Shown: piece by piece, positions 314 to 10,430 of the stretch
Numbering within the stretch: position 1 is the stretch's first letter
Layout: each line of letters starts with the position of its first letter
DNA from: Candidatus Auribacterota bacterium
GTDB taxonomy: Bacteria; Auribacterota; UBA6266
Length of the DNA stretch: 10,430 bases
Assembly: GCA_023136205.1 (NCBI GenBank)
Contig: JAGLRQ010000099.1
Coordinates: 1 to 10,430, forward strand
Reading direction: 5' to 3'
The notes under the pieces: generated by a model
Told to the model about the DNA's origin: nothing
What the model saw: only the letters and a program-made list of their open reading frames with translations
The model's database searches: none
Position numbers and translations under genes: made by a program

Positions 314-343
314 TTGCTTTTATTAAAAAAAAAGAGCTATACT
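314..343 (+). promoter_or_regulatory. Candidate sigma70-type promoter for the membrane-protein gene pair
   Basis: TTGCTT (314-319), an 18-nt spacer, then TATACT (338-343). The ATG at 350 lies 7 nt after the -10 element, so a leaderless transcript is possible. This is a weak, by-eye call. Confidence 0.3.
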
Positions 344-349
344 GTTGTT

Positions 350-889
350 ATGATACCGTTCATTAATCTACCGGTTAAAATAGTGCGGCTTTTTACTTCT
401 AACGTATCCCCGAGTGAAATAGCCGCGGGGGTATGCCTGGGTATGTTTATGGCTTTTATTCCTTTAAACGGCCCTATGGCTATCGTCCTTTTAATATGCT
501 TGTTTGTCTTCAAGATAAACAGGCTCGCCGCAATGCTGGTACTTCCTTTAATTAAAATTTTATATTTACTTGGCATATATTCGATTACAGACGCACTCGG
601 GGGCCTTCTGCTCATTAAGGCTGATTTTCTTGCTCCTGTTTGGAGTATCCTGACACACTTTCCTGTGATTGGGTTATTAGACCTGAATAATACACTTGTT
701 ACCGGAGGCCTTGTCCTCTCGGCTATACTCTGTTTTCCTGTATACCTGTTTTCTAAAAAAGCTATCGTGATTCTCAGAAAAAAATATTTTGACAAAATAA
801 AGAACTCGAAATTCGTAAAATGGCTTTTGAAGATACCTATTATCGGAAAACTCATAACCTTGACAGACCGCCTAAAAGGCAGCGCATAA
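350..889 (+). CDS. Polytopic inner-membrane protein, DUF2062/TIGR03546-like
   Basis: This is ORF 314..889. The first ATG is at 350 (MIPFINLP...), and TTG 314 is an alternative start. The protein has several hydrophobic helices. The motif SPSEIAAGVCLGMFMAFIPLNGP resembles the DUF2062/TIGR03546 signature as I recall it. The stop TAA (887-889) overlaps the next ATG (TAATG). Confidence 0.65.
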   Translation: MIPFINLPVKIVRLFTSNVSPSEIAAGVCLGMFMAFIPLNGPMAIVLLICLFVFKINRLAAMLVLPLIKILYLLGIYSITDALGGLLLIKADFLAPVWSILTHFPVIGLLDLNNTLVTGGLVLSAILCFPVYLFSKKAIVILRKKYFDKIKNSKFVKWLLKIPIIGKLITLTDRLKGSA

Positions 890-2386: not shown

Positions 2387-2767
2387 TTATTCATCCGAAG
2401 AACAACCAGCAGCTTTAGCCGGAGCTTCTACGATGCCGACAACAGCTTCTTTTGCAGTTTCCGCGGTTCCCTTAATCGGGGTGGTAATAATTTCAGGGGC
2501 CTTTTTTATGTTACCGGTCAATGTTTCTCCGGTCGCCTCAACTGTACCTCCAACTGTTTCTGCCGCACATTTCACAGTTTTTCCGGCAGCCTTAACAGTT
2601 TCACCGGCAAGCTTCACAGGATAGGTTACAACTGACTTAATAAATTCGCTGCCGCCGCTTATTGCTTTGGATCTCTTTCCGGGCTTATCCGCAAAAGCAG
2701 GCGTTAAAATAAAAACCGCGATAATTACAAGAACAGAAATCGTTAGTAAACTTTTCCCAACTTTCAC
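2387..2767 (-). CDS. Small secreted protein with heptad-like xxETVxx repeats, function unknown
   Basis: This is ORF 2387..2821. The preferred start is GTG at 2767, 7 nt downstream of GGAGG on the minus strand. That start gives (M)KVGKSLLTISVLVIIAVFILTPAFA/DKPGK, a classic signal peptide. The mature part contains AGETVKA-AGKTVKC-AAETVGG-TVEATGE repeats. Confidence 0.6.
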   Translation of the reverse strand: MKVGKSLLTISVLVIIAVFILTPAFADKPGKRSKAISGGSEFIKSVVTYPVKLAGETVKAAGKTVKCAAETVGGTVEATGETLTGNIKKAPEIITTPIKGTAETAKEAVVGIVEAPAKAAGCSSDE

Positions 2768-2898: not shown

Positions 2899-2927
2899 TT
2901 GACAAAAAATAATATCTTGTGTATATT
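2899..2927 (+). promoter_or_regulatory. Candidate sigma70-type promoter of the Fur-family gene and operon
   Basis: Consensus TTGACA (2899-2904), a 17-nt spacer, then TATATT (2922-2927). The RBS AAGGAG is at 2951-2956 and the ATG at 2965. Confidence 0.55.
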
Positions 2928-2933
2928 TGTAAA

Positions 2934-2948
2934 TGGAAACCATTTTCA
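2934..2948. promoter_or_regulatory. Degenerate Fur-box-like 7-1-7 site overlapping the predicted transcription start of the fur-like gene
   Basis: TGGAAAC-C-ATTTTCA matches 12 of the 14 half-site positions of the perfect site TGAAAAT-A-ATTTTCA at 3454-3468. It starts 7 nt after the -10 element and is embedded in the palindrome aaatgg-aaa-ccattt. Confidence 0.4.
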
Positions 2949-2964: not shown

Positions 2965-3438
2965 ATGCCTCGTGGAAACGGATTAGGGCCGCCGTGGTGG
3001 CATGGTAGATTTAGAGGCTGTGGATATAAAATTACTCTCGGTAGAGAAGCTATTCTCAATGCGCTTATCAAAGCCGATCAGCATTTAAGCGCTGAGGATA
3101 TTTATCAAAAGGTTCATACAACCTACCCTGCCATAGGATTAACAACCGTATACAGAACACTTGAAATCCTGGTTAATATGGGCCTTGTTTTTAAGTTTGA
3201 TTTTGGTGACGGCCGGGCAAGGTATGAACTCGTTGAAGGATCAAAGAAAAGCCATCATCACCACCATTTAGTATGTACCAATTGCAAACGGGTCATTGAC
3301 TATACAGATTTTGTAGATGATGAAATAGGATTACTTAAAAAAACAGAAAAAGGTTTATCTAAGAAATACAGCTTTGAGATAACAAATCATGTTATACAAT
3401 TTTACGGGCTGTGCGGCCAATGCAAAAATACTAAATAA
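2965..3438 (+). CDS. fur: Fur-family metalloregulator (Fur/Zur/PerR class not resolved) with a DUF5320-like extension of about 22 aa at the N-terminus
   Basis: The winged-helix region reads LSAEDIYQKV...IGLTTVYRTLEILVNMGLV. It is followed by SHHHHHLVCTNC and a C-terminal CGQC, i.e. the His-rich sensing site plus a CxxC...CxxC structural site typical of Fur-family proteins. The N-terminus is MPRGNGLGPPWWHGRFRGCGY. An AAGGAG RBS lies 8 nt upstream. Confidence 0.9.
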   Translation: MPRGNGLGPPWWHGRFRGCGYKITLGREAILNALIKADQHLSAEDIYQKVHTTYPAIGLTTVYRTLEILVNMGLVFKFDFGDGRARYELVEGSKKSHHHHHLVCTNCKRVIDYTDFVDDEIGLLKKTEKGLSKKYSFEITNHVIQFYGLCGQCKNTK

Positions 3439-3447
3439 TTTTTTCAA

Positions 3448-3474
3448 TATTAATGAAAATAATTTTCATTAATA
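3448..3474. promoter_or_regulatory. Perfect 27-bp palindrome with a Fur-box-like 7-1-7 core; putative operator
   Basis: The sequence is tattaatgaaaat-a-attttcattaata, with core TGAAAAT-A-ATTTTCA at 3454-3468. It lies 10 nt after the fur-like stop codon and 7 nt before the AGGAGGAGG RBS of the next gene. Confidence 0.6.
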
Positions 3475-3497
3475 AAAATTAGGAGGAGGTGAGCAAG

Positions 3498-3875
3498 ATG
3501 CCAAGAGGAGATGGAACCGGCCCAAGGGGAATGGGTCCCATGACAGGCCGGGCAGCAGGTTACTGCGCCGGTTATTCCGCGCCAGGTTATGCTAATCCGA
3601 TTTCCGGCAGAGGCCGGGGATTTGGTTATGGCCGCGGCAGAGGCTATGGTTGGGGCCGAGGCGGACGAGGAAGACAGGCCTGGGTTGGCTATGGACCCGC
3701 GTGGGGATACCCATATGGAGATGGCCTTGATTATGCAAATCCCGGCGCTCCAGAATTCACACCGCAACAGGAAGCAGAGATGCTTAAAAGAGAGGCCAAG
3801 GCTATGCAGAATGAGATTAACTCCATAAACCAGCGTATAAGTGAATTGGAATCTGCGGCAAAAGAGGCCAAATAA
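3498..3875 (+). CDS. DUF5320-family protein: conserved N-terminal motif, RG/aromatic-rich low-complexity region and C-terminal coiled coil
   Basis: This is ORF 3489..3875. The preferred start is ATG 3498, 8 nt after AGGAGGAGG (3481-3489). MPRGDGTGPRGMGPMTGRAAGYCAG matches the DUF5320 N-terminus as I recall it. It is followed by GRGRGFGYGRGRGYGWGRGGRGR and then the helical QQEAEMLKREAKAMQNEINSINQRISELESAAKEAK. There are tandem TAA TAA stops. Confidence 0.85.
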   Translation: MPRGDGTGPRGMGPMTGRAAGYCAGYSAPGYANPISGRGRGFGYGRGRGYGWGRGGRGRQAWVGYGPAWGYPYGDGLDYANPGAPEFTPQQEAEMLKREAKAMQNEINSINQRISELESAAKEAK

Positions 3876-3878
3876 TAA

Positions 3879-3942
3879 GTACTCAGAAAAGTTAGAGGTT
3901 GGAGCAAGTAAGAAAGAGCTCACTTACCTGCTCCCTGAGTAC
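3879..3942 (+). other. Intercistronic RNA stem-loop with no U-tract
   Basis: The outer stem gtactcag (3879-3886) / ctgagtac (3935-3942) has 8/8 pairs. The inner stem ggagcaagtaag (3901-3912) / cttacctgctcc (3923-3934) has 11/12 pairs. There is a 14-nt 5' bulge and a 10-nt loop. Confidence 0.4.
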
Positions 3943-3967
3943 ACAATCTTAGAAAAGGAGATTTTTT

Positions 3968-4366
3968 ATGAGGGCGGCTATATCCACAGATGGTGGTTTT
4001 GTATCTGCTCATTTTGGCAGATGTCCATCTTTTACTATCATAGATATTGAAAATGGCAAAGTTGCGAAAAAAGAGGTTTTAGACAATCCCGGGCATCAAC
4101 CTGGACTCATACCGCAATTTTTACACCAAAAAGGCGTTGAATGTATAATTTGCGGCGGGATGGGAATGCGGGCAGCAGGTTTTTTTGAAGAACTCGGCAT
4201 ACAGGCGATTGTAGGGATAAGCGGCAAAATTGAAGAAGCAATAGAAAAACTTCAAAAAGGAACTTTGGAAGGCGGTAAAAGCTCATGCAATCCCGGCGCG
4301 GGCAAAGGTTATGGGATAGACAAAACTGTATGTGACCACCCAAATGAAGAGAACCACGAACATTAA
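3968..4366 (+). CDS. Stand-alone NifX/NafY/NifB-C-terminal-like domain protein (dinitrogenase FeMo-cofactor-binding fold, MTH1175-like) with a Cys/His-rich tail
   Basis: The family-typical pattern is MRAAISTDGG.VSAHFGRC..F.I.D.ENGK....VLDNPGH...CGGMG.RA...L.E.GI.A. The RBS AAGGAG is at 3955-3960. The extra tail reads SSCNPGAGKGYGIDKTVCDHPNEENHEH. Confidence 0.85.
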   Translation: MRAAISTDGGFVSAHFGRCPSFTIIDIENGKVAKKEVLDNPGHQPGLIPQFLHQKGVECIICGGMGMRAAGFFEELGIQAIVGISGKIEEAIEKLQKGTLEGGKSSCNPGAGKGYGIDKTVCDHPNEENHEH

Positions 4367-4383
4367 TTATAAAAGGAGGGGCT

Positions 4384-4758
4384 ATGAAGGTTTGTGTTAC
4401 TTCTGAAGGAAATAATCTGGATTCTAAGGTTGATCCTCGTTTTGGCAGGTGTCAGTATTTTATCATTGCGGATATCGATACTTTAGCATTTGAGGCTGTA
4501 CAGAATCCGAATATTGACTCAATGGGCGGAGCGGGAATTCAGTCCGGGCAATTAATAGCAGGGAAACAGGTAAAAGCTGTTTTAACGGGAAATATGGGGC
4601 CAAATGCTTTCCAGACACTACAAGCAGCAAATATAACCGTAGTTACCGGAATATCCGGCAGTGTTAAGGAAGCAGTCGAGAAATATAAAAACGGTGATTT
4701 TAAGGCCACGCAGGGGCCAAGCGTAGACTCAAAATTCGGCATGCCTCCGCAAAAATAA
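4384..4758 (+). CDS. Second stand-alone NifX/NafY-like domain protein
   Basis: MKVCVTSEGNNLDSKVDPRFGRCQYFIIADIDT...VQNP...GGAGIQSGQLIAGKQVKAVLTGNMGPNAFQTLQAANI fits the same fold pattern. A strong RBS AGGAGGGG (4374-4381) lies just upstream. Confidence 0.85.
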   Translation: MKVCVTSEGNNLDSKVDPRFGRCQYFIIADIDTLAFEAVQNPNIDSMGGAGIQSGQLIAGKQVKAVLTGNMGPNAFQTLQAANITVVTGISGSVKEAVEKYKNGDFKATQGPSVDSKFGMPPQK

Positions 4759-4849
4759 TCTAAAAAAGATGTTAGCAATGGAACACGCCGCTTGTATAAA
4801 CGAGCGCTTAAATGAAACAATTAACAATTTTAAAATAAGGAGGTGTACA

Positions 4850-5074
4850 ATGCCAGGTGGAAATGGGACAGGCCCTTTTGGTGGAGGGCCGGGAACAGGC
4901 AGAGGTATGGGAGGAAGCGGCGGACGCGGCAGGATGGGGGGAAATCGCCCGGGCGCGGGCCCCGGCGGAGATTGCATCTGCCCTAAGTGTGGAGAAAAAG
5001 TATCTCATCAGGTAAGCGTTCCCTGCTATTCTATTGATTGCCCTAAATGTGGAACAAAAATGGTTAGAGGATAG
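4850..5074 (+). CDS. Mini-protein of 74 aa: a DUF5320-like Gly-rich N-terminus fused to a two-knuckle zinc ribbon
   Basis: This is ORF 4769..5074. The preferred start is ATG 4850, 6 nt after AAGGAGG (4837-4843). The N-terminus is MPGGNGTGPFGGGPGTGRGMGG and the C-terminus is C-I-CPKCG...PC....CPKCG. Confidence 0.75.
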   Translation: MPGGNGTGPFGGGPGTGRGMGGSGGRGRMGGNRPGAGPGGDCICPKCGEKVSHQVSVPCYSIDCPKCGTKMVRG

Positions 5075-5077
5075 AAT

Positions 5078-5926
5078 ATGATTATTGCTGTCGCCAGCGG
5101 AAAAGGTGGCACAGGTAAAACCACGGTCGCGGTGAATCTTGCACTGTCAAACTCAAACACGCAGCTTTCAGATTGCGATGTGGAAGAACCTAATGCCCAT
5201 ATTTTTATAAAACCAAAAATCAAAAATAAAGAGCTTATTTCTATTCCTGTGCCTGAAGTTGATAAATCTAAATGTGATGGCTGTGGCAGGTGCCAGGAGG
5301 TTTGCGCTTATAATGCCATAGCAGTTGTAAATAAAAAAGTGTTAATATTCCCCGAGCTTTGTCATGGGTGCGGCTCCTGCGGTTATTTCTGCCCTCAACA
5401 CGCGATAAAAGAAATAAATAAAGAAATTGGTTCTGTTGAAATCGGCAAAAGGGACAATTTGCTATTTGTGCATGGAAAGTTAAATATTGGCGAAGCAATG
5501 TCGCCGCCGCTCATAAAGGCAGTTAAAAAACATGTCAATCCCGCCCGAGTAAATATTATTGACGCGCCTCCGGGAACTTCCTGTCCTGTAATTACATCAA
5601 TAGAAGGAAGCGATTTTTGCCTTCTTGTTACCGAACCGACCCCCTTTGGATTAAATGACCTTATCCTCGCGGTTGAAGTCTTGAGGAAACTTGATATTCC
5701 CTTTGGTGTCGTTATCAACAGATCGGATTTAGGAGATAAAAAAACAGATGATTACTGTTCTCAGGAAAACATACCCGTACTTATGAGAATACCCTTCAAA
5801 AGAGAGATAGCTTCCGCTTATTCAAAAGGGATATCTATTGTTGAGGCATTCCCTGAATATAAAAAAGATTTTCAAGAGCTGCTGGATAATATTAGTAAGA
5901 TGGCAAAACAAAATAACAGAAGATAA
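5078..5926 (+). CDS. MinD/Mrp-class P-loop ATPase with an inserted 2x[4Fe-4S] ferredoxin domain (COG1149-like)
   Basis: The deviant Walker A is ASGKGGTGKTT. The inserted motifs are CDGCGRCQEVC and CHGCGSCGYFCP. Conserved extra cysteines occur in SDCDVEEPN and DAPPGTSCPV. The gene starts 3 nt after the previous stop. Confidence 0.9.
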   Translation: MIIAVASGKGGTGKTTVAVNLALSNSNTQLSDCDVEEPNAHIFIKPKIKNKELISIPVPEVDKSKCDGCGRCQEVCAYNAIAVVNKKVLIFPELCHGCGSCGYFCPQHAIKEINKEIGSVEIGKRDNLLFVHGKLNIGEAMSPPLIKAVKKHVNPARVNIIDAPPGTSCPVITSIEGSDFCLLVTEPTPFGLNDLILAVEVLRKLDIPFGVVINRSDLGDKKTDDYCSQENIPVLMRIPFKREIASAYSKGISIVEAFPEYKKDFQELLDNISKMAKQNNRR

Positions 5927-5941
5927 ATAATGGAGAGTTTA

Positions 5942-7282
5942 ATGGAAGAAAAAGTAGATATCCTTGTAATAGGCGGAGGCCCCGCTGGAATAATAAGCGC
6001 GGTAACCGCGAAAAAATATTACGCGAATAAGAAAATTTTGGTGATGAAAAGTATAGAAAACGGGGTTATCCCCTGCGGCATCCCCTATATGTTCGCGAGC
6101 CTGAAAAATCCCGATGAAAATAAGTTGGGTAATGCCGCTTTAGAAAAGAATAATATTAGTGTAATAGTAGACGAAGCGGTAAAAATTAATCGTGACAATA
6201 AAACAGTAGACACTAAAAATAAAAAAACATACCGTTATGAAAAATTAATACTGGCAATGGGTTCTTCGCCTGTTATCCCCCCTATCCCCGGCATCGATAA
6301 AAAAGGTATTTATCCAATATTTAAGGATATGGATTATCTTAAAAATGCTATAGAGCAAATTAGAAAGACAAAAAACATTGTCATATTAGGAGGCGGGTTT
6401 ATAGGAGTAGAATTTGCCGATGAAATTGCTAAAATCAAGGGCTTAAATGTGCATTTAGTAGAAATGCTTCCCGATTTACTGGCAAATTCTTTCGATTCAG
6501 AGTTTTCTAAGGCCGCGGAGGAAAAATTAAAATCTAAAGGGGTAACTGTTTTAACCGGCACTCGTATTGAAGAATTTACAGGTAACGAAAAGATAGAAGA
6601 AATTCGGCTTTCGGATGGAACAAAACTACCGGCCGACAGCGTAATTTTAGGCGCGGCGGCGGCTCCCGACACAAAACTAGCCGCTGACGCGGGGTTGGAT
6701 CTGGGCAGGGGGAAAGGAATATGGGTAGATGAATATATGCGGACAGTTGATCCGGATATTTTCGCCGTGGGAGACTGCGCCGGGAAAAAAGATTTTTATA
6801 CCCGCAAAGATGTTTCAGTAATGCTTGCTTCAACCGCGACTGCCGAGGCAAGGATTGCCGGGGCAAACCTTTATAAATTGAAAGTAGTGCGGGAAAACAA
6901 AGGAACAATAGCTATTTATTCAACTTATATTGATGGGTTGGTTTTAGGTTCGGCCGGGCTTACAGAGAATAGCGCTAAAAAAGAAAATTTTGAGATTGCG
7001 ACAGGTATTTCTAATGGAGTAGACAAACACCCTGCTACTTTACCGGGGACAAACAAAATTAAGGTTAAACTAATTTTTTCAAAACAATCAGGGATCATAT
7101 TAGGAGGACAGGTATACGGAGGCATATCGTGTGGTGAAATGATAAATTTAATAGGCCTTGCTATTCAAAAAAGAGTACTTTCTACAGAACTTGAAACGTT
7201 GCAAATGGCTACTCATCCTTATTTAACCAGCGCTCCAACGGTATATCCAATAGTGTTAGCCGCCCAGGATGCGTTTAAATAA
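5942..7282 (+). CDS. FAD-dependent pyridine nucleotide-disulfide oxidoreductase, single-Cys NADH oxidase/CoA-disulfide reductase type
   Basis: This is ORF 5930..7282. ATG 5942 has GGAG 6 nt upstream, and ATG 5930 is an alternative start. The FAD fold motif is DILVIGGGPAG, the NAD(P) fold motif is IVILGGGFIGVEFADE, and AVGDCAG is present. There is a single candidate redox Cys in GVIPCGIPY, comparable to the SF.NCG/ALPY motif of Nox/CoADR enzymes. Confidence 0.9.
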   Translation: MEEKVDILVIGGGPAGIISAVTAKKYYANKKILVMKSIENGVIPCGIPYMFASLKNPDENKLGNAALEKNNISVIVDEAVKINRDNKTVDTKNKKTYRYEKLILAMGSSPVIPPIPGIDKKGIYPIFKDMDYLKNAIEQIRKTKNIVILGGGFIGVEFADEIAKIKGLNVHLVEMLPDLLANSFDSEFSKAAEEKLKSKGVTVLTGTRIEEFTGNEKIEEIRLSDGTKLPADSVILGAAAAPDTKLAADAGLDLGRGKGIWVDEYMRTVDPDIFAVGDCAGKKDFYTRKDVSVMLASTATAEARIAGANLYKLKVVRENKGTIAIYSTYIDGLVLGSAGLTENSAKKENFEIATGISNGVDKHPATLPGTNKIKVKLIFSKQSGIILGGQVYGGISCGEMINLIGLAIQKRVLSTELETLQMATHPYLTSAPTVYPIVLAAQDAFK

Positions 7283-7314
7283 AAAATGATCGTAACATTT
7301 TAAAAGGATTGGTA

Positions 7315-8175
7315 ATGAAACAAATCGTTATAATAAGCGGCAAGGGAGGCACAGGAAAAACAGTAATTACAGGGGCATTTGCCGCTTTGGCAAAAAATAA
7401 GGTGATGGCTGATTGTGATGTTGACGCGGCAGATTTGCATCTATTATTAAAGCCGCAGATAAAAGAACGACATACCTTTAAAAGCGGCGCGACAGCGTTT
7501 ATTAATAAAGAACTCTGTACTCAGTGCGGAAAATGTGTTGAAGTATGCCGTTTTGATGCTATAAGCAAAGATTTTGTTATAGATTCTGTTTCCTGTGAGG
7601 GATGCGCGTTCTGTAGTTTCGCCTGTCCTGTTAACGCAATAACAATGGAAGAAAATGTTTCGGGCGAATGGTTTATATCGGACACACGTTTTGGATCTAT
7701 GGTGCACGCGAAACTTGGGATTGCCGAAGAAAATTCGGGAAAACTGGTTTCTTTAGTAAGGCAAAGAGCTAAGAAAATTGCTGAAGATGAAAAATCTGAT
7801 TGGATTATTATAGACGGTTCTCCCGGCATAGGGTGTCCGGTAATCGCTTCTCTCGGCGGCGTCAATTGTGCTTTAGTCGTCACCGAACCAACCTTATCAG
7901 GACTGCATGATGCTGATAGAGTTATAAAGGTTGCTAAACATTTTGGAGTACCAACTAAACTTGTGATAAATAAATATGATTTGAACTTGGAAATGACAAA
8001 AAACATAGAGCAGTACTGTCAGGATAATAACATTCAGCTTATCGGAAAGATAGGCTTCGATAAGGCTGTGGTGGAGGCAATGGTAGAAGGCAAGACAATA
8101 ATTGAGTATACGGATGGAAAAGCCAAAAGAGAAATTAGTGAAATGTGGGATAGGGTAGAAAAAGATATCCATTAG
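7315..8175 (+). CDS. Second MinD/Mrp-class ATPase with an inserted 2x[4Fe-4S] ferredoxin domain; paralog of 5078-5926
   Basis: This is ORF 7309..8175. The preferred start is ATG 7315, 6 nt after AAAGGA. Motifs are ISGKGGTGKT, CTQCGKCVEVC and CEGCAFCSFACP. The extra cysteines occur in ADCDVDAAD and DGSPGIGCPV. Confidence 0.9.
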   Translation: MKQIVIISGKGGTGKTVITGAFAALAKNKVMADCDVDAADLHLLLKPQIKERHTFKSGATAFINKELCTQCGKCVEVCRFDAISKDFVIDSVSCEGCAFCSFACPVNAITMEENVSGEWFISDTRFGSMVHAKLGIAEENSGKLVSLVRQRAKKIAEDEKSDWIIIDGSPGIGCPVIASLGGVNCALVVTEPTLSGLHDADRVIKVAKHFGVPTKLVINKYDLNLEMTKNIEQYCQDNNIQLIGKIGFDKAVVEAMVEGKTIIEYTDGKAKREISEMWDRVEKDIH

Positions 8176-8187
8176 TAAAAATCAAAA

Positions 8188-8964
8188 ATGGCAACAAAAA
8201 ATCTTAAATACATTTACGGGCCTGTCCCCTCCTGGAGATTGGGAAGTTCTTTGGGCATAGATCCTGTCTCATACAAAGAAAAAATTTGCAGTTTTGACTG
8301 TATTTATTGCCAATTGGGCAAAACAAAAGTGTTTTCTGATAAAAGAAAAATCTTCGTCCCTGTATCGAAAATTGTAGACGAATTAAAATTGTTGCCATCT
8401 ATAGAAATAGATTATATCACGTTTTCAGGCAGCGCAGAACCAACATTGGCTAAAAATTTGGGAACCATGATAAAAGCAACAAAGAAAATAAGGAATGAAA
8501 AAGTAGCAGTTTTAACCAATTCTTCCCTTTTAGATAAAAAAGACGTTCAGCAGAATTTATTGTTAGCCGATTTTGTCATAGCCAAACTTGACGCGGTTTC
8601 TCAAGAAACCTTTGAAATAATCAACAGCCCCCTGAAAACAATAAAATTTAATCCTGTTTTGAAGGGAATAAAGAATTTTCGAAGCATTTATAAAGGAAAA
8701 TTGGCGCTGCAGATAATGTTTGTTGAGCAAAACAAAAAACACGCGTCCGGAATCGCGCGGATGGCAAAAGAGATTAATCCTGATGAAGTACAAATCAATA
8801 CTCCTTTAAGGCCCTGTAGACTAAAGCCTTTATCGAAAGAAGAGTTACGTACTATAAAGAGCCATTTTAATGGTTTAAATAGTATTTCTGTATATGAAGC
8901 TGAAAAGAAAACGGTTAAGCCAATTAGCAGCGAAGATACATTGAAAAGGAGGGGTAAAATTTAA
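8188..8964 (+). CDS. Radical SAM enzyme, small and without an evident SPASM or other C-terminal cluster domain
   Basis: The CX3CX2C motif CSFDCIYC is near the N-terminus, and FSGSAEPTL is a GGE-like SAM-binding motif. The 258-aa length is consistent with a partial TIM barrel only. Confidence 0.85.
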   Translation: MATKNLKYIYGPVPSWRLGSSLGIDPVSYKEKICSFDCIYCQLGKTKVFSDKRKIFVPVSKIVDELKLLPSIEIDYITFSGSAEPTLAKNLGTMIKATKKIRNEKVAVLTNSSLLDKKDVQQNLLLADFVIAKLDAVSQETFEIINSPLKTIKFNPVLKGIKNFRSIYKGKLALQIMFVEQNKKHASGIARMAKEINPDEVQINTPLRPCRLKPLSKEELRTIKSHFNGLNSISVYEAEKKTVKPISSEDTLKRRGKI

Positions 8965-8967
8965 GAC

Positions 8968-9849
8968 ATGAAAACATATTTAGACTGCATCCCCTGCTTT
9001 TTTAAACAAGCTCTTGAGGCGGCAAGAATGGCTGGTGCCGGCGAGAGGATGCAAAAAAAGATATTAAATGAATTGGCCGAAATCCTGCCGGAATTTCCCT
9101 TAACTTCTTCCCCTCCTGAAATGGGCAGAATTATTTATGGGCTGGCTAGAAGGGTAACCCGGAGAGATGACCCTTATCTGAAGATAAAAGAAAAGAGCAA
9201 TCAACTTGCTCTGAATATTTATGGTAAGTTAAAAAAGAAAATAAGCCGTTCCCCTGATAAATTATTGATGGCGGTTAAGCTGGCTATTGCGGGTAATATT
9301 ATTGATTATGGCGTAAAAAATTCCCTGAATGTTGACGTGGAACTGGCAAAAATTCTAAACGAAGAAAATAAAGCTATTAACGAAGAAAAGAAGTCAATAT
9401 TTGATTACGCGAGATTTAAGAGTACTTTAAGGAGGGCAAAAACTATTCTTTACCTTGCTGACAATGCCGGAGAAACAGTTTTTGACCGCATTCTTATTGA
9501 GGAGATAAAAAGAATTGATGGAGATAAAAGAATTGTCTATGCTGTCAAAGAAAAGCCTGTTATTAACGACGCGTTAGTTGAAGATGCCTGTGTATGTGGG
9601 ATTGACAAATTAGCAAAGGTTATTTCTTCGGGCTCAGATGCTCCGGGAACAGTTCTTTCTTTATGTTCAAAAAATTTCTTAAGAATATACAAAAAAGCGG
9701 ATATGGTCATAAGTAAAGGACAGGGGAACTTCGAGGCCTTATCAACAACAAAAAGACAGGCCTTTTTTCTCCTCATGGCAAAGTGTCCGGTAATTGCCAA
9801 AGATGTTGGATGTGAAGTCGGGGATGTGATTTTAAGGAGTCTATTTTAA
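8968..9849 (+). CDS. DUF89 (ARMT1-like, damage-control phosphatase family) protein
   Basis: The N-terminal CIPCFFKQALEAA, plus the DNAGETVFD and SKGQGNFEAL motifs, match the metal-binding signatures of DUF89 proteins as I recall them. The gene starts 3 nt after the radical SAM stop. Confidence 0.85.
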   Translation: MKTYLDCIPCFFKQALEAARMAGAGERMQKKILNELAEILPEFPLTSSPPEMGRIIYGLARRVTRRDDPYLKIKEKSNQLALNIYGKLKKKISRSPDKLLMAVKLAIAGNIIDYGVKNSLNVDVELAKILNEENKAINEEKKSIFDYARFKSTLRRAKTILYLADNAGETVFDRILIEEIKRIDGDKRIVYAVKEKPVINDALVEDACVCGIDKLAKVISSGSDAPGTVLSLCSKNFLRIYKKADMVISKGQGNFEALSTTKRQAFFLLMAKCPVIAKDVGCEVGDVILRSLF

Positions 9850-10430
9850 ATGCGGTATATTCCTAAACTATTTGCCGGAGAAATCGAAGAAAATCATAAG
9901 CATTTTGAAGAACGCCTCTCCCTTTATAAAGAAAAGGGCCTTGATTTCTTTGAAAGCCGCAAATTTATATTAGAAAAAGCAAAACCTTTAGAAGGCAGCA
10001 TTTTGGAACTAGGCACCGGTACGGGATATACAACGCTTGCTTTGGCTAAAGCGGGGCACAAAATTATTTCTATAGACAAAGATAAAGAAACTTTAAAAAC
10101 GGCAGCATTAAATCTTGCTTACGCGAACGTTCTTTCCAGCGCTAAATTTTACATGATGGACGCAAAGCGTCTAACTTTTAAGAACAGTAATTTTAACAAC
10201 GTGGTTGCTGTAAACTTATTTCACCATATAGACAGTGCCAATAAAATGTTCGCGGAAATAGACAGAATATTGTACGCAAACGGCAAAATTGTTTTGTCCG
10301 ATTTTAACAAAAGAGGAATGGATACAGTTGATGCCGTACATAAACAAGAAGGCCACGTACATGAAAACAAATTCATTACCAAGTCTGATGTTTCTTCATA
10401 TTTTCGCGGCTTGGGATATAAGATTAAGAG
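9850..10430 (+). CDS. Class I SAM-dependent methyltransferase, 3'-truncated by the window edge
   Basis: This gene is not in the supplied ORF track because it is open-ended. ATG 9850 directly abuts the TAA at 9847-9849. I translated it by hand with no stop through 10430. Motif I is ILELGTGTGYTTLALAKAG, and VVAVNLFHHI and GKIVLSDF follow. Confidence 0.8.
   Translation, partial: MRYIPKLFAGEIEENHKHFEERLSLYKEKGLDFFESRKFILEKAKPLEGSILELGTGTGYTTLALAKAGHKIISIDKDKETLKTAALNLAYANVLSSAKFYMMDAKRLTFKNSNFNNVVAVNLFHHIDSANKMFAEIDRILYANGKIVLSDFNKRGMDTVDAVHKQEGHVHENKFITKSDVSSYFRGLGYKIK

What the first reader, a model, noticed from the sequence alone, without database searches (positions are those of the whole stretch)
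2965..10430. Fur-family-controlled 11-gene cluster resembling a split, nif-independent NifB/NifX/NifH-like metallocluster assembly or trafficking system
Seen in the sequence: eleven co-directional genes are separated by 0-92 nt, with no convincing internal intrinsic terminator. They encode a Fur-family regulator, two DUF5320 proteins, two stand-alone NifX-like proteins and two MinD/Mrp-class ATPases that each carry 2x[4Fe-4S] motifs. They also encode a single-Cys flavoprotein disulfide reductase/oxidase, a radical SAM enzyme, a DUF89 protein and a SAM methyltransferase. Established knowledge: NifB is a radical SAM domain fused to a NifX-like domain and builds the FeMo-co precursor. NifX and NafY carry such clusters. 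NifH and Mrp/NBP35/ApbC belong to the same ATPase class and hold subunit-bridging Fe-S clusters. Inference: the same functional parts appear here as separate genes, with no nifHDK or nifEN in view. This suggests a stand-alone machine that builds, stores or delivers a complex Fe-S or other metal cofactor, with the flavoprotein as reductant and Fur-type metal sensing as control. To my knowledge the core families (DUF5320, ferredoxin-inserted MinD ATPases, stand-alone NifX-like proteins) have no experimentally defined role. A Fur-controlled iron storage or biomineralisation role is an alternative reading.
Basis: partly seen in the sequence, partly recalled or inferred. Interest (0 to 1): 0.8.

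Follow-up and report, generated by a model that had tools for sequence, protein, structure and literature searches.

The report
Fur-controlled orange-protein (ORP) type iron-sulfur operon
This is a real, widely conserved operon of anaerobes: a variant of the poorly understood Desulfovibrio "orange protein" (ORP) complex that most likely handles iron-sulfide cargo, here switched by a dedicated Fur-type iron regulator that carries the same N-terminal peptide as the proteins it controls.

Summary
The operon continues past the window into an MBL-fold gene and an IscU-type scaffold.

It is not an unknown system. It is a variant of the ORP (orange protein) gene cluster of Desulfovibrio:
- NifX-like-2 is a full-length match to D. 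gigas orange protein.
- NifX-like-1 matches the C-terminal domain of MrpORP.
- The two ferredoxin-inserted MinD-class ATPases match the published description of Orp3/Orp4.

In 80 species-representative genomes from many bacterial and archaeal phyla, ATPase1 sits with ATPase2 in 79, a NifX-like gene in 74 and a DUF5320 gene in 51. Mrp, IscU, radical SAM, MBL and DUF89 genes recur less often.

New here:
- A Fur subfamily with a conserved DUF5320-like N-terminal tag, and a Fur-box-like operator conserved at two positions across phyla.
- Natural fusions of the orange-protein domain to DUF5320-type Gly/Arg-rich tails. These mirror IssA, the thioferrate storage protein.

The "split NifB/NifH" reading fails its tests. 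The radical SAM enzyme is not NifB-like and is not core. The ATPases are MinD/Mrp-like.

Best reading: ATP- and redox-driven handling of iron-sulfide or Fe-S cargo. The biochemistry is inferred, not shown.

The parts
2899..2927 (+). Sigma-70-type promoter of the operon (TTGACA-17-TATATT).
   Evidence: It matches 11 of 12 consensus positions. The same TTGACA-17-TATAAT-like element lies upstream of the fur homologue in L005, L008, L012-L016 and L020.
2932..2948 (+). Operator 1 (AATGGAAACCATTTTCA), a Fur-box-like inverted repeat. It lies 4 nt after the -10 element and 33 nt before the fur ATG.
   Evidence: An equivalent site lies 29-38 nt before the fur start in every tag-Fur locus that matched the pattern there.
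2965..3438 (+). Fur-family regulator with a 19-aa N-terminal tag, MPRGNGLGPPWWHGRFRGC. The tag resembles the DUF5320 N-terminal motif.
   Evidence: - PF01475 scores 110 bits and covers residues 20-147.
- The closest solved relatives are Fur proper (9IRE, E=3e-28), and those alignments start at residue 17.
- The tag is conserved in the 120 closest homologues.
- W11, W12, G14, F16 and G18 are invariant, and C19 is at least 90% conserved. H40, H98-101, C104, C107, C150 and C153 are also invariant.
3448..3474 (+). Operator 2, a perfect 13-1-13 palindrome: TATTAATGAAAAT-A-ATTTTCATTAATA. It lies in the fur/DUF5320-a spacer.
   Evidence: A conserved copy lies 1-78 nt before DUF5320-a in L005, L008, L012, L014, L090, L091 and L092, and a more degenerate one was seen by eye in L080.
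3498..3875 (+). DUF5320-a. It has the N-terminal motif MPRGDGTGPRGMGPMTGRAAGYC, then a Gly/Arg/aromatic-rich cationic stretch, then a C-terminal acidic helix.
   Evidence: - PF17253 scores 91 bits.
- Residues 24-85 contain 20 Gly, 7 Arg/Lys, 12 aromatic residues and 6 Pro, with pI 10.0.
- The same tail type is fused to the orange-protein domain in other genomes.
3968..4366 (+). NifX-like-1, equivalent to the C-terminal 'Di-Nase' domain of MrpORP. It carries HFGRC and CDH motifs.
   Evidence: - PF02579 scores 88 bits.
- It matches NCBIfam MrpORP model positions 265-364 at E=1.8e-27.
- The best PDB matches are TM1816 (1T3V/1O13) and PH0822.
- The Cys/His motifs correspond to those described for MrpORP (PMC6345978).
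4384..4758 (+). NifX-like-2, an orange-protein (Orp8/ORP) type carrier of the MTH1175/IssA clade.
   Evidence: The best PDB match is 2WFB, D. gigas ORP, at E=7e-21 over residues 2-113 of 124. MTH1175 follows at E=2e-18.
4850..5074 (+). DUF5320-b. It has the N-terminal motif MPGGNGTGP, a Gly/Arg-rich stretch and a 6-Cys C-terminal ribbon. By position it is the candidate counterpart of Orp5.
   Evidence: - Pfam matches only the N-terminal motif, at 20.6 bits against a 27-bit cut-off.
- Its position directly upstream of the ATPases matches the orp5-orp4-orp3 operon order (PMC8359166).
- The same tail is fused to the orange-protein domain in L015.
5078..5926 (+). ATPase1, a MinD/Mrp-class deviant-Walker-A ATPase with an inserted 2x[4Fe-4S] ferredoxin domain (Orp3/Orp4 type).
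   Evidence: -
- The invariant residues are GKGGTGKT, eight ferredoxin Cys, and C33, C169 and C227.
- The AlphaFold2 model has mean pLDDT 90.7, and its best folds are archaeal MinD, FleN and ApbC.
5930..7282 (+). Single-redox-Cys flavoprotein of the CoA-disulfide / CoA-persulfide reductase / NADH oxidase group. It is a lineage-specific accessory gene.
   Evidence: - Pyr_redox_2 scores 213 bits.
- The best PDB matches are NoxA-3 (6PFZ, E=3e-49) and CoA-persulfide reductase (8A56, E=3e-48). The redox Cys aligns in IPCGIPY.
- The gene is present in only 6 of 80 homologous clusters and is replaced by a CoA_binding protein in L008.
7315..8175 (+). ATPase2, a paralogue of ATPase1 (35% identity) with the same ferredoxin insert.
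   Evidence: It lies next to ATPase1 in 79 of 80 genomes.
8188..8964 (+). Radical SAM enzyme of unknown specificity. It is an accessory gene and is not NifB-like.
   Evidence: - PF04055 scores 49 bits.
- All NCBIfam hits are far below their cut-offs, and no NifB model appears.
- There is no PDB sequence relative.
- It occurs in 21 of 80 clusters and lies directly upstream of DUF89 in the window and in L019, L038 and L073.
8968..9849 (+). DUF89/ARMT1-like metal-dependent phosphatase, an accessory gene.
   Evidence: PF01937 scores 244 bits and covers residues 4-286, which supports the 8968 start. It occurs in 18 of 80 clusters.
9850..10430 (+). Class I SAM methyltransferase, cut by the window end (211 aa on L001). 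It is an accessory gene.
   Evidence: Methyltransf_11 scores 61 bits. The full gene, followed by MBL-fold and NifU_N genes, is on L001. A methyltransferase occurs in 16 of 80 clusters.

Best explanation
**What it is.** This is an ORP-type (orange protein complex) operon of an anaerobic PVC-group bacterium (Candidatus Auribacterota/Aureabacteria MAG). It is autoregulated by its own first gene, a specialised Fur-family repressor.

**Shown here.**
- The gene set and its synteny across phyla.
- Homology of NifX-like-2 to orange protein and of NifX-like-1 to the MrpORP C-terminal domain.
- The obligate pairing of the two ATPase genes.
- A conserved promoter and two conserved operators.
- Gene fusions that join the orange-protein domain to DUF5320 tails.

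**Inferred mechanism.**
1. The NifX-like proteins hold an anionic iron-sulfide species: Fe-S cluster fragments or thioferrate-like chains.
2. The Gly/Arg/aromatic-rich DUF5320 proteins act as detachable cationic tails, like the tail of IssA. They stabilise or organise that cargo.
3. The ATPase1/ATPase2 heterodimer carries four [4Fe-4S] clusters and three further invariant Cys per subunit. It couples ATP hydrolysis and electron transfer to loading or unloading the cargo.
4. The IscU-type scaffold encoded just downstream receives or supplies clusters. In sister clusters an MrpORP-type Mrp carrier is also present.
5. The CoA-persulfide-reductase-like flavoprotein supplies sulfide or reducing power in this lineage.
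6. The radical SAM / DUF89 / methyltransferase / MBL genes form a variable accessory shell of unknown chemistry.
7. Fur binds the two operators, which lie at and downstream of the promoter, in response to iron. Its DUF5320-like tag possibly also reports the loading state.
For: **Identity as an ORP-type cluster.**
- NifX-like-2 matches D. gigas ORP (2WFB) at E=7e-21 over its full length.
- NifX-like-1 matches MrpORP model positions 265-364 at E=1.8e-27.
- The Mrp gene of sister cluster L008 matches MrpORP positions 1-249 at 356 bits.
- The two ATPases share 35% identity, and each has two [4Fe-4S] motifs. Orp3 and Orp4 are described the same way (PMC6345978).

**Synteny in 80 species-representative genomes, bacteria and archaea.**

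| Neighbour of ATPase1 | Loci out of 80 |
|---|---|
| ATPase2 | 79 |
| any NifX-like | 74 |
| any DUF5320 | 51 |
| Mrp | 42 |
| IscU | 29 |

**Links to iron.**
- Fur, or in three loci DtxR, lies beside homologous clusters, and FeoB is a neighbour in six.
- VIT1 plus rubrerythrin lie upstream in L008, and an EncFtn-like gene sits inside the L091 cluster.
- IscU and a ZnuA/ABC-3 importer lie downstream in L001.

**Fur control.**
- A perfect 13-1-13 palindrome lies in the fur/DUF5320-a spacer, and a second copy lies just after the -10 element.
- The same sites occur in other tag-Fur loci. Named contigs there include Omnitrophota, Planctomycetales, Clostridia, Puniceicoccaceae and Nitrospirota MAGs. 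A more degenerate copy was seen by eye in the Syntrophaceae locus L080.
- 28 sites lie in tag-Fur loci, all 29-38 nt before fur or 1-78 nt before DUF5320-a. About 1 Mb of other loci holds three chance hits inside coding sequence plus three sites upstream of DUF5320-a in L047.
- Every tag-Fur context examined is followed by DUF5320-NifX-NifX, and by a ferredoxin-ATPase wherever the contig reaches that far.

**Tail hypothesis.**
- The orange-protein domain is fused to a Gly/Arg-rich stretch plus a coiled coil (the DUF5320-a type) in at least 13 loci.
- It is fused to the DUF5320-b type Cys ribbon in L015.
- It forms orange-protein-tail-NifX1 triple fusions in L040, L042 and L064.
- DUF5320-a residues 24-85 have 20 Gly, 7 cationic, 12 aromatic and 6 Pro residues at pI 10.0. 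The 70-aa IssA tail has 15 Gly, 7 cationic, 14 aromatic and 11 Pro residues at pI 10.7 (PMC5524996).

**Published biochemistry.**
- Orp3 co-purifies with Orp4 and Orp8, and MrpORP transfers Fe-S clusters to them (PMC6345978).
- IssA stores thioferrate and rebuilds the [4Fe-4S] cluster of ferredoxin (PMC5524996).
Against: - No biochemistry exists for this organism. The cargo is inferred only from homology and gene context.
- Purified orange protein carries a Mo-Cu thiometallate cluster, not an iron-sulfide one (PMC6345978).
- The D. vulgaris literature proposes a cell-division role and calls the function unclear (PMC8359166).
- IssA is not required for thioferrate-like particles to form in P. 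furiosus (PMC8219758).
- The operator geometry suggests that classical holo-Fur would repress the operon when iron is plentiful. That fits a scavenging or assembly system better than a store that fills when iron is abundant.
- I could not align the window proteins directly with DVU2103-2109, Dde_3197 or PF2025, because those sequences were not obtainable with these tools.
- The accessory enzymes (radical SAM, DUF89, methyltransferases, MBL) have no place in the model.
Confidence: 0.55

Rival explanations
1. One reading: a stand-alone 'split NifB / NifX / NifH' machine. The radical SAM enzyme would build a complex, NifB-co-like or otherwise exotic, metallocluster on the NifX-like proteins. The ATPases would act like NifH in maturation.
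For: A radical SAM gene, NifX-like genes and SIMIBI-class ATPases with Fe-S motifs lie in one operon. Radical SAM genes recur in 21 of 80 homologous clusters. Three invariant Cys outside the ferredoxin insert, C33, C169 and C227, could hold an extra cluster.
Against: - No NifB model appears among the NCBIfam hits. The best hits, MoaA and a W-cofactor maturase, score 41 bits against cut-offs of 284-380.
- The radical SAM protein has only four Cys, so it has no auxiliary cluster ligands.
- It has no PDB sequence relative.
- It is absent from about three quarters of the clusters, whereas the ATPase pair and NifX-like genes are nearly universal.
- The ATPases fall below the Fer4_NifH threshold, and the ATPase1 model ranks MinD, FleN and ApbC far above NifH, which first appears at rank 39.
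Confidence: 0.08
2. Thiometallate handling. The system would bind, detoxify or traffic thiomolybdate, thiotungstate or Cu-thiometallate species that form spontaneously in sulfidic habitats, as the Mo-Cu cluster of purified orange protein suggests.
For: NifX-like-2 is a full-length homologue of the protein that was purified with [S2MoS2CuS2MoS2]3- (PMC6345978). The cationic tails would bind any anionic metal-sulfide. A MoeA-like gene lies near three of the 80 clusters, identified by eye from the sequence and not confirmed by Pfam.
Against: - The regulators and neighbours point to iron: Fur, DtxR, FeoB, IscU, Mrp, EncFtn-like and VIT1/rubrerythrin.
- No molybdate or tungstate transporter or pterin pathway gene is among the 25 most recurrent unassigned neighbour families listed, apart from the MoeA-like gene in three loci.
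- The MrpORP-type domain, to which NifX-like-1 corresponds, binds Fe-S (PMC6345978).
Confidence: 0.1
3. A cell-division or positioning role. The MinD-like ATPase pair would position a structure such as the septum or a polar complex, as proposed for D. vulgaris. The Fe-S and NifX parts would serve as redox sensors.
For: The ATPase1 model matches archaeal MinD best. The morphological defects of D. vulgaris orpR mutants are attributed to lowered Orp protein levels, and MrpORP localises to a pole (PMC8359166, PMC6345978).
Against: - No recognised division gene (minC, minE, ftsZ) is among the neighbour families identified.
- Dedicated iron regulators and Fe-S scaffold or carrier genes co-occur instead.
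- The published division link is indirect, and the authors call the role 'still unclear' (PMC8359166).
Confidence: 0.08
4. A composite operon. Only fur to ATPase2, plus IscU, would form the ORP/iron-sulfide unit. The radical SAM-DUF89-methyltransferase-MBL genes would be an unrelated small-molecule or damage-control module that is merely co-transcribed, possibly related to CoA or phosphopantetheine.
For: - The accessory genes occur in only 20-26% of clusters, and their order varies.
- Radical SAM and DUF89 genes travel together in the window and in L019, L038 and L073.
- A CoA theme recurs: a CoA-persulfide-reductase-like flavoprotein here, and CoA_binding and PanD genes in L008.
Against: The same accessory families recur beside ORP cores in unrelated phyla, including archaea. 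That is more than chance linkage would give. They are separated from the core by 0-12 nt with no terminator.
Confidence: 0.15

Closest known systems
ORP (orange protein) complex and orp operons of Desulfovibrio vulgaris Hildenborough / D. gigas (Orp3, Orp4, Orp5, Orp7, Orp8, MrpORP; regulator OrpR)
   Same: - An orange-protein homologue is present (2WFB, E=7e-21).
- There are two paralogous MinD-class ATPases, each with two [4Fe-4S] ferredoxin motifs.
- A small Cys-rich protein is encoded directly upstream of the ATPases.
- A Di-Nase domain equivalent to the C-terminal half of MrpORP is present.
- The system is restricted to anaerobes.
- Sigma-54 activators sit beside homologous clusters in 18 of 80 loci.
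   Different: - Regulation is by an autoregulated Fur-family protein with a sigma-70 promoter, not OrpR with sigma-54 and IHF.
- The genes form one co-directional operon, not two divergent ones.
- The Mrp P-loop domain is absent from the window, and the Di-Nase domain stands alone.
- There is an extra DUF5320-a tail protein, a flavoprotein, radical SAM, DUF89, methyltransferase and MBL genes, and a linked IscU.
IssA (PF2025), the iron-sulfur storage protein of Pyrococcus furiosus that holds thioferrate
   Same: - Both have the IPR003731/Nitro_FeMo-Co domain.
- NifX-like-2 is close to MTH1175 (E=2e-18), which the IssA authors place in the IssA clade (PMC5524996).
- A cationic, aromatic, glycine-rich and nearly Cys-free segment of about 60-70 residues is associated with the domain.
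- Both are linked to iron in their expression or regulation.
   Different: - In the window the tail is on separate polypeptides, DUF5320-a and DUF5320-b. It is fused only in other genomes.
- The DUF5320 tails carry a conserved N-terminal MPRGDGTGP...C motif and a C-terminal coiled coil or Cys ribbon. The IssA paper does not describe such features for the IssA tail.
- The ATPase pair is not mentioned in the IssA paper.
- Thioferrate binding is untested here.
NifB / NifX / NafY / NifH nitrogenase cofactor maturation proteins
   Same: They share the NifX-type domain fold family. The ATPases belong to the same deviant-Walker-A dimeric class as NifH. A radical SAM gene lies in the operon.
   Different: - The radical SAM protein is not of the NifB family.
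- The ATPases are below the NifH threshold and fold like MinD or Mrp.
- They carry an inserted ferredoxin domain that NifH lacks.
- No nifDK or nifEN genes are in the window or the 16.9-kb contig stretch, and no such family is among the 25 most recurrent unassigned neighbour families listed.
Mrp/NBP35/ApbC Fe-S carrier ATPases and metallochaperone ATPases of the MinD class (HypB-Mrp type)
   Same: The fold class and the GKGGxGKT signature match. They share the context of Fe-S delivery.
   Different: - There is no C-terminal CxxC bridging motif of the Mrp type.
- Instead there is a 2x[4Fe-4S] ferredoxin insert plus invariant C33, C169 and C227.
- The ATPase genes occur as an obligate pair of paralogues.
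Classical Fur regulators and Fur boxes
   Same: - The Fur domain is present, with two CxxC pairs and a His-rich site.
- The operator core TGAAAATAATTTTCA is a 7-1-7 repeat. It differs from the B. subtilis Fur box TGATAATNATTATCA, recalled from memory, at one position per half-site.
   Different: - It carries a conserved 19-aa N-terminal tag that resembles the N-terminus of the DUF5320 proteins it regulates.
- It is encoded as the first gene of its target operon.
- In every context seen it is tied to this one cluster.

Membership tests
ORP (orange protein) gene cluster | An orange-protein-type NifX-like carrier (Orp8 / D. gigas ORP). | tested here: met
   NifX-like-2 matches 2WFB at E=7.3e-21, residues 2-113 against 6-119.
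ORP (orange protein) gene cluster | Two paralogous MinD-type ATPases, each with two [4Fe-4S] ferredoxin motifs (Orp3/Orp4). | tested here: met
   - Pfam finds CbiA/ParA plus Fer4 twice in both proteins.
- They share 35% identity, and all eight ferredoxin Cys are invariant.
- They are adjacent in 79 of 80 genomes.
- The architecture matches the description in PMC6345978.
- A direct alignment to DVU2103/DVU2104 was not possible.
ORP (orange protein) gene cluster | A small Cys-rich [2Fe-2S]-binding protein encoded upstream of the ATPases (Orp5 / Dde_3197). | tested here: inconclusive
   DUF5320-b (74 aa, six Cys) occupies the equivalent position (operon order from PMC8359166). The sequences of DVU2105 and Dde_3197 were not available, so homology could not be tested.
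ORP (orange protein) gene cluster | MrpORP: an Mrp/NBP35 P-loop domain fused to a Di-Nase domain. | tested here: not met
   Only the Di-Nase half is present, as the stand-alone NifX-like-1 (model positions 265-364, 96.6 bits against a 450-bit cut-off). There is no Mrp gene in the window or in the 16.9 kb of L001. The P-loop half occurs as a separate gene in sister clusters, for example L008 at 356 bits, and in 42 of 80 loci.
ORP (orange protein) gene cluster | Control by sigma-54 and the enhancer-binding protein OrpR. | tested here: not met
   The operon has a sigma-70-type promoter and Fur-type operators instead. The window encodes no sigma-54 activator.
IssA (thioferrate storage protein) | The IPR003731 / Nitro_FeMo-Co globular domain. 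| tested here: met
   PF02579 scores 88 and 91 bits. NifX-like-2 is close to MTH1175, the structural template that the IssA authors place in the IssA clade (PMC5524996).
IssA (thioferrate storage protein) | A C-terminal cationic, aromatic, Gly-rich tail on the same polypeptide. | tested here: not met
   Both NifX-like proteins of the window lack a tail. A tail of matching composition is encoded separately as DUF5320-a, and it is fused to the domain in other genomes.
IssA (thioferrate storage protein) | Binds thioferrate and forms nanoparticles. | not testable with these tools
   This needs anaerobic purification, XAS or Moessbauer spectroscopy, and TEM.
NifB | A NifB-type radical SAM domain with auxiliary cluster ligands. 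| tested here: not met
   No NifB model appears among the NCBIfam matches at E <= 0.001. The best hits score 41 bits against cut-offs of 284-380. The protein has only four Cys.
NifH / Fer4_NifH (PF00142) | A score above the Pfam gathering threshold and a NifH-like fold as the closest match. | tested here: not met
   The ATPases score 18.4 and 22.1 bits against a 25-bit cut-off. In the Foldseek PDB search, MinD, FleN, ApbC and HypB come first and the first NifH is at rank 39.
Fur family | The FUR domain, two CxxC pairs, a His-rich metal site and an inverted-repeat operator. | tested here: met
   - PF01475 scores 110 bits.
- C104, C107, C150, C153, H40, H98-101 and E88 are invariant.
- Operators are present and conserved.
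- No NCBIfam equivalog cut-off is reached; the best is the Bacillus-type Fur model at 130 bits against 220.
Fur family | DNA binding that responds to Fe2+. | not testable with these tools
   This needs EMSA or footprinting with and without metal, or transcriptomics.
DUF5320 (PF17253) | A score above the gathering threshold. | tested here: met
   DUF5320-a scores 91.4 bits against 27. DUF5320-b fails at 20.6 bits, with only its N-terminal motif matched.
CoA-disulfide reductase / NADH oxidase / persulfide reductase group | Pyr_redox_2 plus the dimerisation domain, and a single redox Cys near the N-terminus. | tested here: met
   - The domains are confirmed.
- The Cys in IPCGIPY aligns with the CG(L/I)PY Cys of 6PFZ and 8A56.
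- The CoADR equivalog cut-offs are not reached: 230 bits against 579. The substrate therefore remains unassigned.

The most novel reading that the evidence does not exclude
The Fur protein of this operon may be a feedback sensor that has borrowed the cargo-binding or docking peptide of its own regulon.

- Its conserved N-terminal tag, MPRGDGTGP-x-WWHGRFRGCGYR, is a version of the DUF5320 N-terminal motif MPRGDGTGPxGxGPxTGRxxGxC.
- The tag would let the repressor bind the same partner as the DUF5320 tails. That partner could be the NifX-like carrier, the ATPase pair or the iron-sulfide cargo itself.
- Transcription would then report how full the iron-sulfide pool is, rather than free Fe2+ alone.
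- Combined with the fusion evidence, this would recast the ORP complex as a widespread, ATP-driven, IssA-like iron-sulfide buffering system of anaerobes.
Probability: 0.2. Interest if true: 0.8.

Novelty: new variant of a known kind. Interest (0 to 1): 0.55.

Why it matters
- The ORP complex is conserved across anaerobic bacteria and archaea. ATPase1 stays 52-74% identical across the 80 best-matching genomes sampled, from Omnitrophota to Bathyarchaeia. Yet its function is still called unclear after fifteen years of work on Desulfovibrio.
- This variant adds three handles that make the question testable.
  1. A dedicated iron-type regulator with a defined operator.
  2. Gene fusions that tie the uncharacterised DUF5320 family to the orange-protein domain and, by architecture, to the thioferrate store IssA.
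  3. Consistent linkage to IscU and Mrp scaffold or carrier genes.
- If the iron-sulfide buffering reading is right, it fills a gap in how strict anaerobes store and mobilise iron and sulfide without ferritin chemistry.

Tried and rejected
1. An exact-sequence look-up of the 450-aa flavoprotein ORF found nothing. The gene caller uses a later start. The ATPase1 look-up succeeded instead.
2. The key 2011 ORP paper (PMC3133258) is not held. The Orp5/Dde_3197 paper was not looked for in the held library, and no sequences for DVU2103-2109 or Dde_3197 were obtained.
3. I tried to get the IssA (PF2025) sequence from the paper and its supplement. Only primers are given, so the tail comparison rests on composition, not alignment.
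4. Literature searches on DUF5320 returned two irrelevant papers. A search that included 'MinD' was swamped by 'mind'. Searches on Fur regulon plus NifX found no prior description of this regulator or operator.
5. The 'split NifB' and 'NifH-like' readings were tested and rejected.
6. The radical SAM protein has no PDB sequence relative.
7. I looked for other protein families that carry the MPRGDGTGP tag in the 89 loci held at that point. Only Fur and DUF5320-type proteins have it, apart from one motif-carrying Gly/Arg-rich ORF in L088 that phmmer assigned to ATPase1.
8. The window has no tRNA genes or Rfam matches.
9. The Fur model gives the tag low to moderate confidence: residues 1-6 fall below pLDDT 50, and residues 10-16 form a short helix. 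No structural role can be read from it.
10. The representative search shows that the strict WWHG tag appears in only 2 of the 70 representatives inspected, P0241 and P0247. Looser W-x-[HQ]-G-x-F...G-[YF]-[RK] variants appear in several more. In all, 44 representatives reach E <= 1e-30.

Full report
**1. Observation**

The window holds eleven co-directional ORFs from 2965 to its end. I refined their starts with the conserved N-termini and with gene calls on a near-identical contig:

| Gene | Coordinates |
|---|---|
| fur | 2965-3438 |
| DUF5320-a | 3498-3875 |
| NifX-like-1 | 3968-4366 |
| NifX-like-2 | 4384-4758 |
| DUF5320-b | 4850-5074 |
| ATPase1 | 5078-5926 |
| flavoprotein | 5930-7282 |
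| ATPase2 | 7315-8175 |
| radical SAM | 8188-8964 |
| DUF89 | 8968-9849 |
| methyltransferase | 9850 to the end (cut) |

Spacers are 0-92 nt. One exception is partial. DUF5320-b reaches only 20.6 bits against a 27-bit cut-off, because it shares just the N-terminal motif and ends in a six-Cys ribbon.

The terminator-like hits on the + strand inside the cluster all lie within coding sequence. The best promoter match (TTGACA-17-TATATT, 2899-2927) lies just upstream of fur. No tRNA gene or Rfam family is present.

**2. Source and wider context**

ATPase1 is 100% identical to a protein of a Candidatus Aureabacteria MAG. NCBI taxonomy files this name under Candidatus Auribacterota, in the PVC group.

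On the longest contig (L001, window coordinate + 962) the operon continues with the full methyltransferase, an MBL-fold protein and a NifU_N/IscU-type scaffold. An unknown 478-aa protein and a ZnuA/ABC-3 metal importer follow. The IscU is closest to the clostridial NifU scaffold model. The feature is therefore larger than the window shows.

**3. What it is**

NCBIfam matched both NifX-like proteins to the C-terminal part of 'MrpORP'. This pointed to the ORP (orange protein) complex of Desulfovibrio.

The published complex has these parts:
- Orp3 and Orp4, MinD-like proteins with two [4Fe-4S] ferredoxin motifs each.
- Orp5, homologous to a small [2Fe-2S] protein.
- Orp8, the orange-protein homologue, known for a non-covalent Mo-Cu sulfide cluster.
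- Orp9, also called MrpORP, an Mrp P-loop domain fused to a 'Di-Nase' domain.

The complex is encoded by the orp5-orp4-orp3 and orp7-orp8-orp9 operons under sigma-54 and OrpR (PMC6345978, PMC8359166).

The tests run here gave these results:
- NifX-like-2 matches D. gigas ORP (2WFB) at E=7e-21 over its full length, and then MTH1175.
- NifX-like-1 matches MrpORP model positions 265-364 (E=1.8e-27) and carries HFGRC and CDH motifs like those described for that domain (PMC6345978).
- The Mrp gene of a sister cluster matches MrpORP positions 1-249 at 356 bits. The Desulfovibrio protein thus corresponds to a fusion of two genes that stay separate here.
- ATPase1 and ATPase2 share 35% identity. All eight ferredoxin Cys and the GKGGTGKT signature are invariant.

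The window is therefore an ORP-type cluster. It differs from the Desulfovibrio original in its regulator, its one-operon layout, the missing Mrp domain and its extra genes.

**4. Synteny**

I scanned one genome per species with an ATPase alignment. The scan returned 80 loci in which ATPase1 is 52-74% identical. They come from these groups:
- Bacteria: Omnitrophota, Planctomycetota, Chloroflexota, Desulfobacterota, Bacillota, Acidobacteriota, Ignavibacteria, Kiritimatiellia, Zixibacteria and Armatimonadota.
- Archaea: Bathyarchaeia, Methanophagales, Methanocellaceae, Thermoplasmatota and Altiarchaeota.

I annotated the loci with phmmer, using the window's proteins as queries. The counts below cover genes within 8 kb on the same strand. 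They are lower bounds, because many contigs are cut.

| Neighbour | Loci out of 80 |
|---|---|
| ATPase2 | 79 |
| any NifX-like | 74 |
| any DUF5320 | 51 |
| Mrp | 42 |
| IscU | 29 |
| radical SAM | 21 |
| MBL | 20 |
| DUF89 | 18 |
| methyltransferase | 16 |
| Fur | 11 |
| flavoprotein | 6 |

Clustering the unassigned neighbours gave further recurrent families, most of them confirmed with Pfam:

| Family | Loci |
|---|---|
| sigma-54 activators (compare OrpR) | 18 |
| DUF134 | 15 |
| DUF364/DUF4213 | 10 |
| TrmO_N | 7 |
| a third NifX-like type | 7 |
| FeoB | 6 |
| CGGC | 5 |
| DtxR | 3 |

No nitrogenase-like family is among the 25 most recurrent families listed. The core is the ATPase pair plus NifX-like and DUF5320 genes, usually with Mrp or IscU. 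The radical SAM, DUF89, methyltransferase, MBL and flavoprotein genes form a variable shell.

**5. The regulator and its operators**

The Fur protein is closest to Fur proper (9IRE, E=3e-28; PerR, E=2e-18), and those alignments begin at residue 17. Residues 1-19 are an extra tag, MPRGNGLGPPWWHGRFRGC.

The tag is conserved:
- All 120 closest homologues (68-97% identity) keep a WWHGRFRGCGYR-type core. Most also keep the MPRGDGTGP-like start.
- W11, W12, G14, F16 and G18 are invariant, like the metal-site His and Cys residues.
- The first nine residues are the DUF5320 N-terminal motif. Across bacteria and archaea that motif reads MP[RG]x[DN]GTGPxGxGPxTGRxxGxC.

The fur/DUF5320-a spacer holds a perfect 13-1-13 palindrome, TATTAATGAAAAT-A-ATTTTCATTAATA (3448-3474). 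A second copy, AATGGAAACCATTTTCA, lies at 2932-2948, right after the -10 element.

Both positions are conserved:
- The same promoter and operator precede fur in L005, L008, L012-L016 and L020.
- The second operator precedes DUF5320-a in L005, L008, L012 and L014, with a more degenerate copy seen by eye in L080.
- The pattern AATGRAAAYNRTTTYCA, with at most one mismatch, finds 28 sites in tag-Fur loci. All lie 29-38 nt before fur or 1-78 nt before DUF5320-a.
- About 1 Mb of other loci holds three chance hits inside coding sequence, plus three sites upstream of a DUF5320 gene in L047.
- Every tag-Fur context inspected is followed by DUF5320-NifX-NifX, and by a ferredoxin-ATPase wherever the contig reaches that far.

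Control by this Fur-family protein is therefore well supported by phylogenetic footprinting. Its metal response, and whether it represses or activates, remain inferred.

**6. DUF5320 as a detachable IssA-like tail**

In many genomes the orange-protein domain is fused at its C-terminus to a Gly/Arg(/Met)-rich stretch plus a coiled coil. This is the architecture of DUF5320-a without the N-terminal motif:
- This fusion occurs in L013, L019, L021, L023, L024, L027, L030, L036, L039, L055, L068, L079 and L088.
- In L015 the domain is fused to a Gly/Arg stretch plus the same Cys ribbon as DUF5320-b.
- In L040, L042 and L064 an orange-protein-tail-NifX1 triple fusion occurs.

IssA of P. furiosus has the same plan: the IPR003731 domain plus a 70-residue tail, proposed to wrap anionic thioferrate (PMC5524996).

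| Segment | Gly | Cationic | Aromatic | Pro | pI |
|---|---|---|---|---|---|
| IssA tail, 70 aa (PMC5524996) | 15 | 7 | 14 | 11 | 10.7 |
| DUF5320-a residues 24-85 | 20 | 7 | 12 | 6 | 10.0 |

This is a resemblance in architecture and composition, not a sequence alignment. The IssA sequence could not be obtained. The IssA paper mentions neither orange protein nor the ATPases.

**7. The other parts**

- The ATPase1 model is confident (mean pLDDT 90.7). Its best PDB folds are archaeal MinD, FleN/FlhG, McdA, ApbC and Mrp-type HypB. The first NifH is at rank 39.
- No close sequence relative of the ATPase has a solved structure. The best match to its NTPase part is MinD at E=3e-9.
- Besides the ferredoxin Cys, C33, C169 and C227 are invariant in both paralogues. 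C169 lies in the DAPPGTSCPV stretch. That it could ligate an inter-subunit cluster is my inference.
- The flavoprotein belongs to the CoA-disulfide / CoA-persulfide reductase / NADH oxidase group, with the redox Cys in IPCGIPY. It is replaced by a CoA_binding protein in L008.
- The radical SAM protein has no informative relative.

**8. Mechanism**

*Shown:* the gene set, the homologies, the synteny, the operators and the fusions.

*From the literature:*
- Orp3 co-purifies with Orp4 and Orp8 and receives Fe-S clusters from MrpORP (PMC6345978).
- The orp genes are expressed only at low redox potential (PMC8359166).
- IssA binds thioferrate and can rebuild the ferredoxin cluster (PMC5524996).

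*Inferred:*
- The NifX-like proteins with DUF5320 tails hold anionic iron-sulfide cargo.
- The ATPase heterodimer loads or unloads it, using ATP and electrons.
- IscU, and Mrp in other genomes, connect it to Fe-S assembly.
- The flavoprotein supplies sulfide or electrons.
- Fur sets expression according to iron.

*Caveats:*
- Orange protein was purified with a Mo-Cu cluster.
- IssA is dispensable for particle formation (PMC8219758).
- Holo-Fur repression would switch the operon on at low iron. That suits scavenging or assembly more than storage.
- The accessory enzymes remain unexplained.

**9. Verdict**

The feature is a new variant of a known but functionally unresolved system.

The points that add value are these:
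- The tag-bearing Fur subfamily and its conserved operator.
- The fusions that link DUF5320 to the orange-protein domain.
- The bridge these build between the ORP and IssA literatures.

Noticed in passing
window 2965-3021 (Fur residues 1-19); P0121-P0240: The Fur-family regulator starts with MPRGNGLGPPWWHGRFRGC. This is a version of the N-terminal motif of the DUF5320 proteins encoded downstream. All 120 closest homologues keep a WWHGRFRGCGYR-type core and most keep the MPRGDGTGP-like start. W11, W12, G14, F16 and G18 are invariant.
   Followed up: yes
L040 8456-9349, L042 399-1235, L064 1170-2162; L015 9428-10000: Natural fusions exist in Desulfobacterales MAGs: orange-protein domain, then Gly/Arg tail with coiled coil, then NifX-like-1 domain. 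In a Clostridia MAG the orange-protein domain is fused to a DUF5320-b type Cys ribbon.
   Followed up: yes
L047 2692-3000: Three copies of the Fur-type operator lie upstream of a DUF5320-a gene in a Leptospirales MAG. No tag-Fur gene is in the locus, so the regulator may be encoded elsewhere in that genome.
   Followed up: no
L091 3169-3420: In one tag-Fur cluster an 83-aa EncFtn-like (encapsulated-ferritin-like) gene sits where DUF5320-b normally lies. This is another link to iron storage.
   Followed up: no
L008 8617-9817 and 13826-14224, 18759-19109: In a sister cluster, VIT1 (iron transporter family) and rubrerythrin genes lie directly upstream of fur. A CoA_binding protein replaces the flavoprotein, and a PanD-type aspartate decarboxylase lies between the radical SAM and DUF89 genes. 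Together with the CoA-persulfide-reductase-like flavoprotein of the window, this suggests a CoA or phosphopantetheine theme in the accessory shell.
   Followed up: partly
L005 16365-17372, L008 15624-16607: A DUF2099 protein lies between ATPase2 and IscU in Omnitrophota-type clusters. It nearly reaches the 'methanogenesis marker 8' NCBIfam cut-off (228 bits against 232.7). This is unexpected outside methanogens.
   Followed up: partly
L048 665-1462 and 15 other loci (e.g. L028 405-869): DUF134, a sigma-70 region-4-like HTH protein, recurs beside ORP-type clusters in 15 of 80 loci and is fused to an orange-protein domain in L048. It is probably a third kind of dedicated regulator, besides the sigma-54 activators and tag-Fur.
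   Followed up: partly
window 5174-5182, 5582-5584, 5756-5758 (ATPase1 C33, C169, C227) and equivalents in ATPase2: Three Cys outside the ferredoxin insert are invariant in both ATPase paralogues. C169 lies in the DAPPGTSCPV stretch. They could hold a further, possibly subunit-bridging, metal site.
   Followed up: partly
window 9850-10430 and methyltransferases in L005, L008, L092: One to three class I SAM methyltransferases are embedded in clusters that also encode Gly/Arg-rich (RGG-like) proteins. In the Pfam scan the window enzyme shows weak similarity to protein methyltransferase families (PrmA and Methyltransf_16 above their cut-offs, PCMT below). The tails might be methylation substrates.
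   Followed up: no
window 2387-2767 (- strand): A divergent small ORF (126-144 aa) has an N-terminal hydrophobic segment, repeated GETV/AETV-type motifs and no Pfam match. It is conserved next to the cluster in L001 and L002.
   Followed up: no
window 314-2214: The upstream genes, unrelated to the finding, encode a DUF2062 membrane protein and an AsmA/DUF748-family protein. A bidirectional hairpin follows at 2232-2247. A second hairpin with a T-run lies at 2787-2806, upstream of the fur promoter.
   Followed up: partly
window 3252-3266 (Fur residues 97-101): A run of five consecutive His (HHHHH) sits at the Fur regulatory metal site. H98-H101 are invariant in the subfamily.
   Followed up: partly
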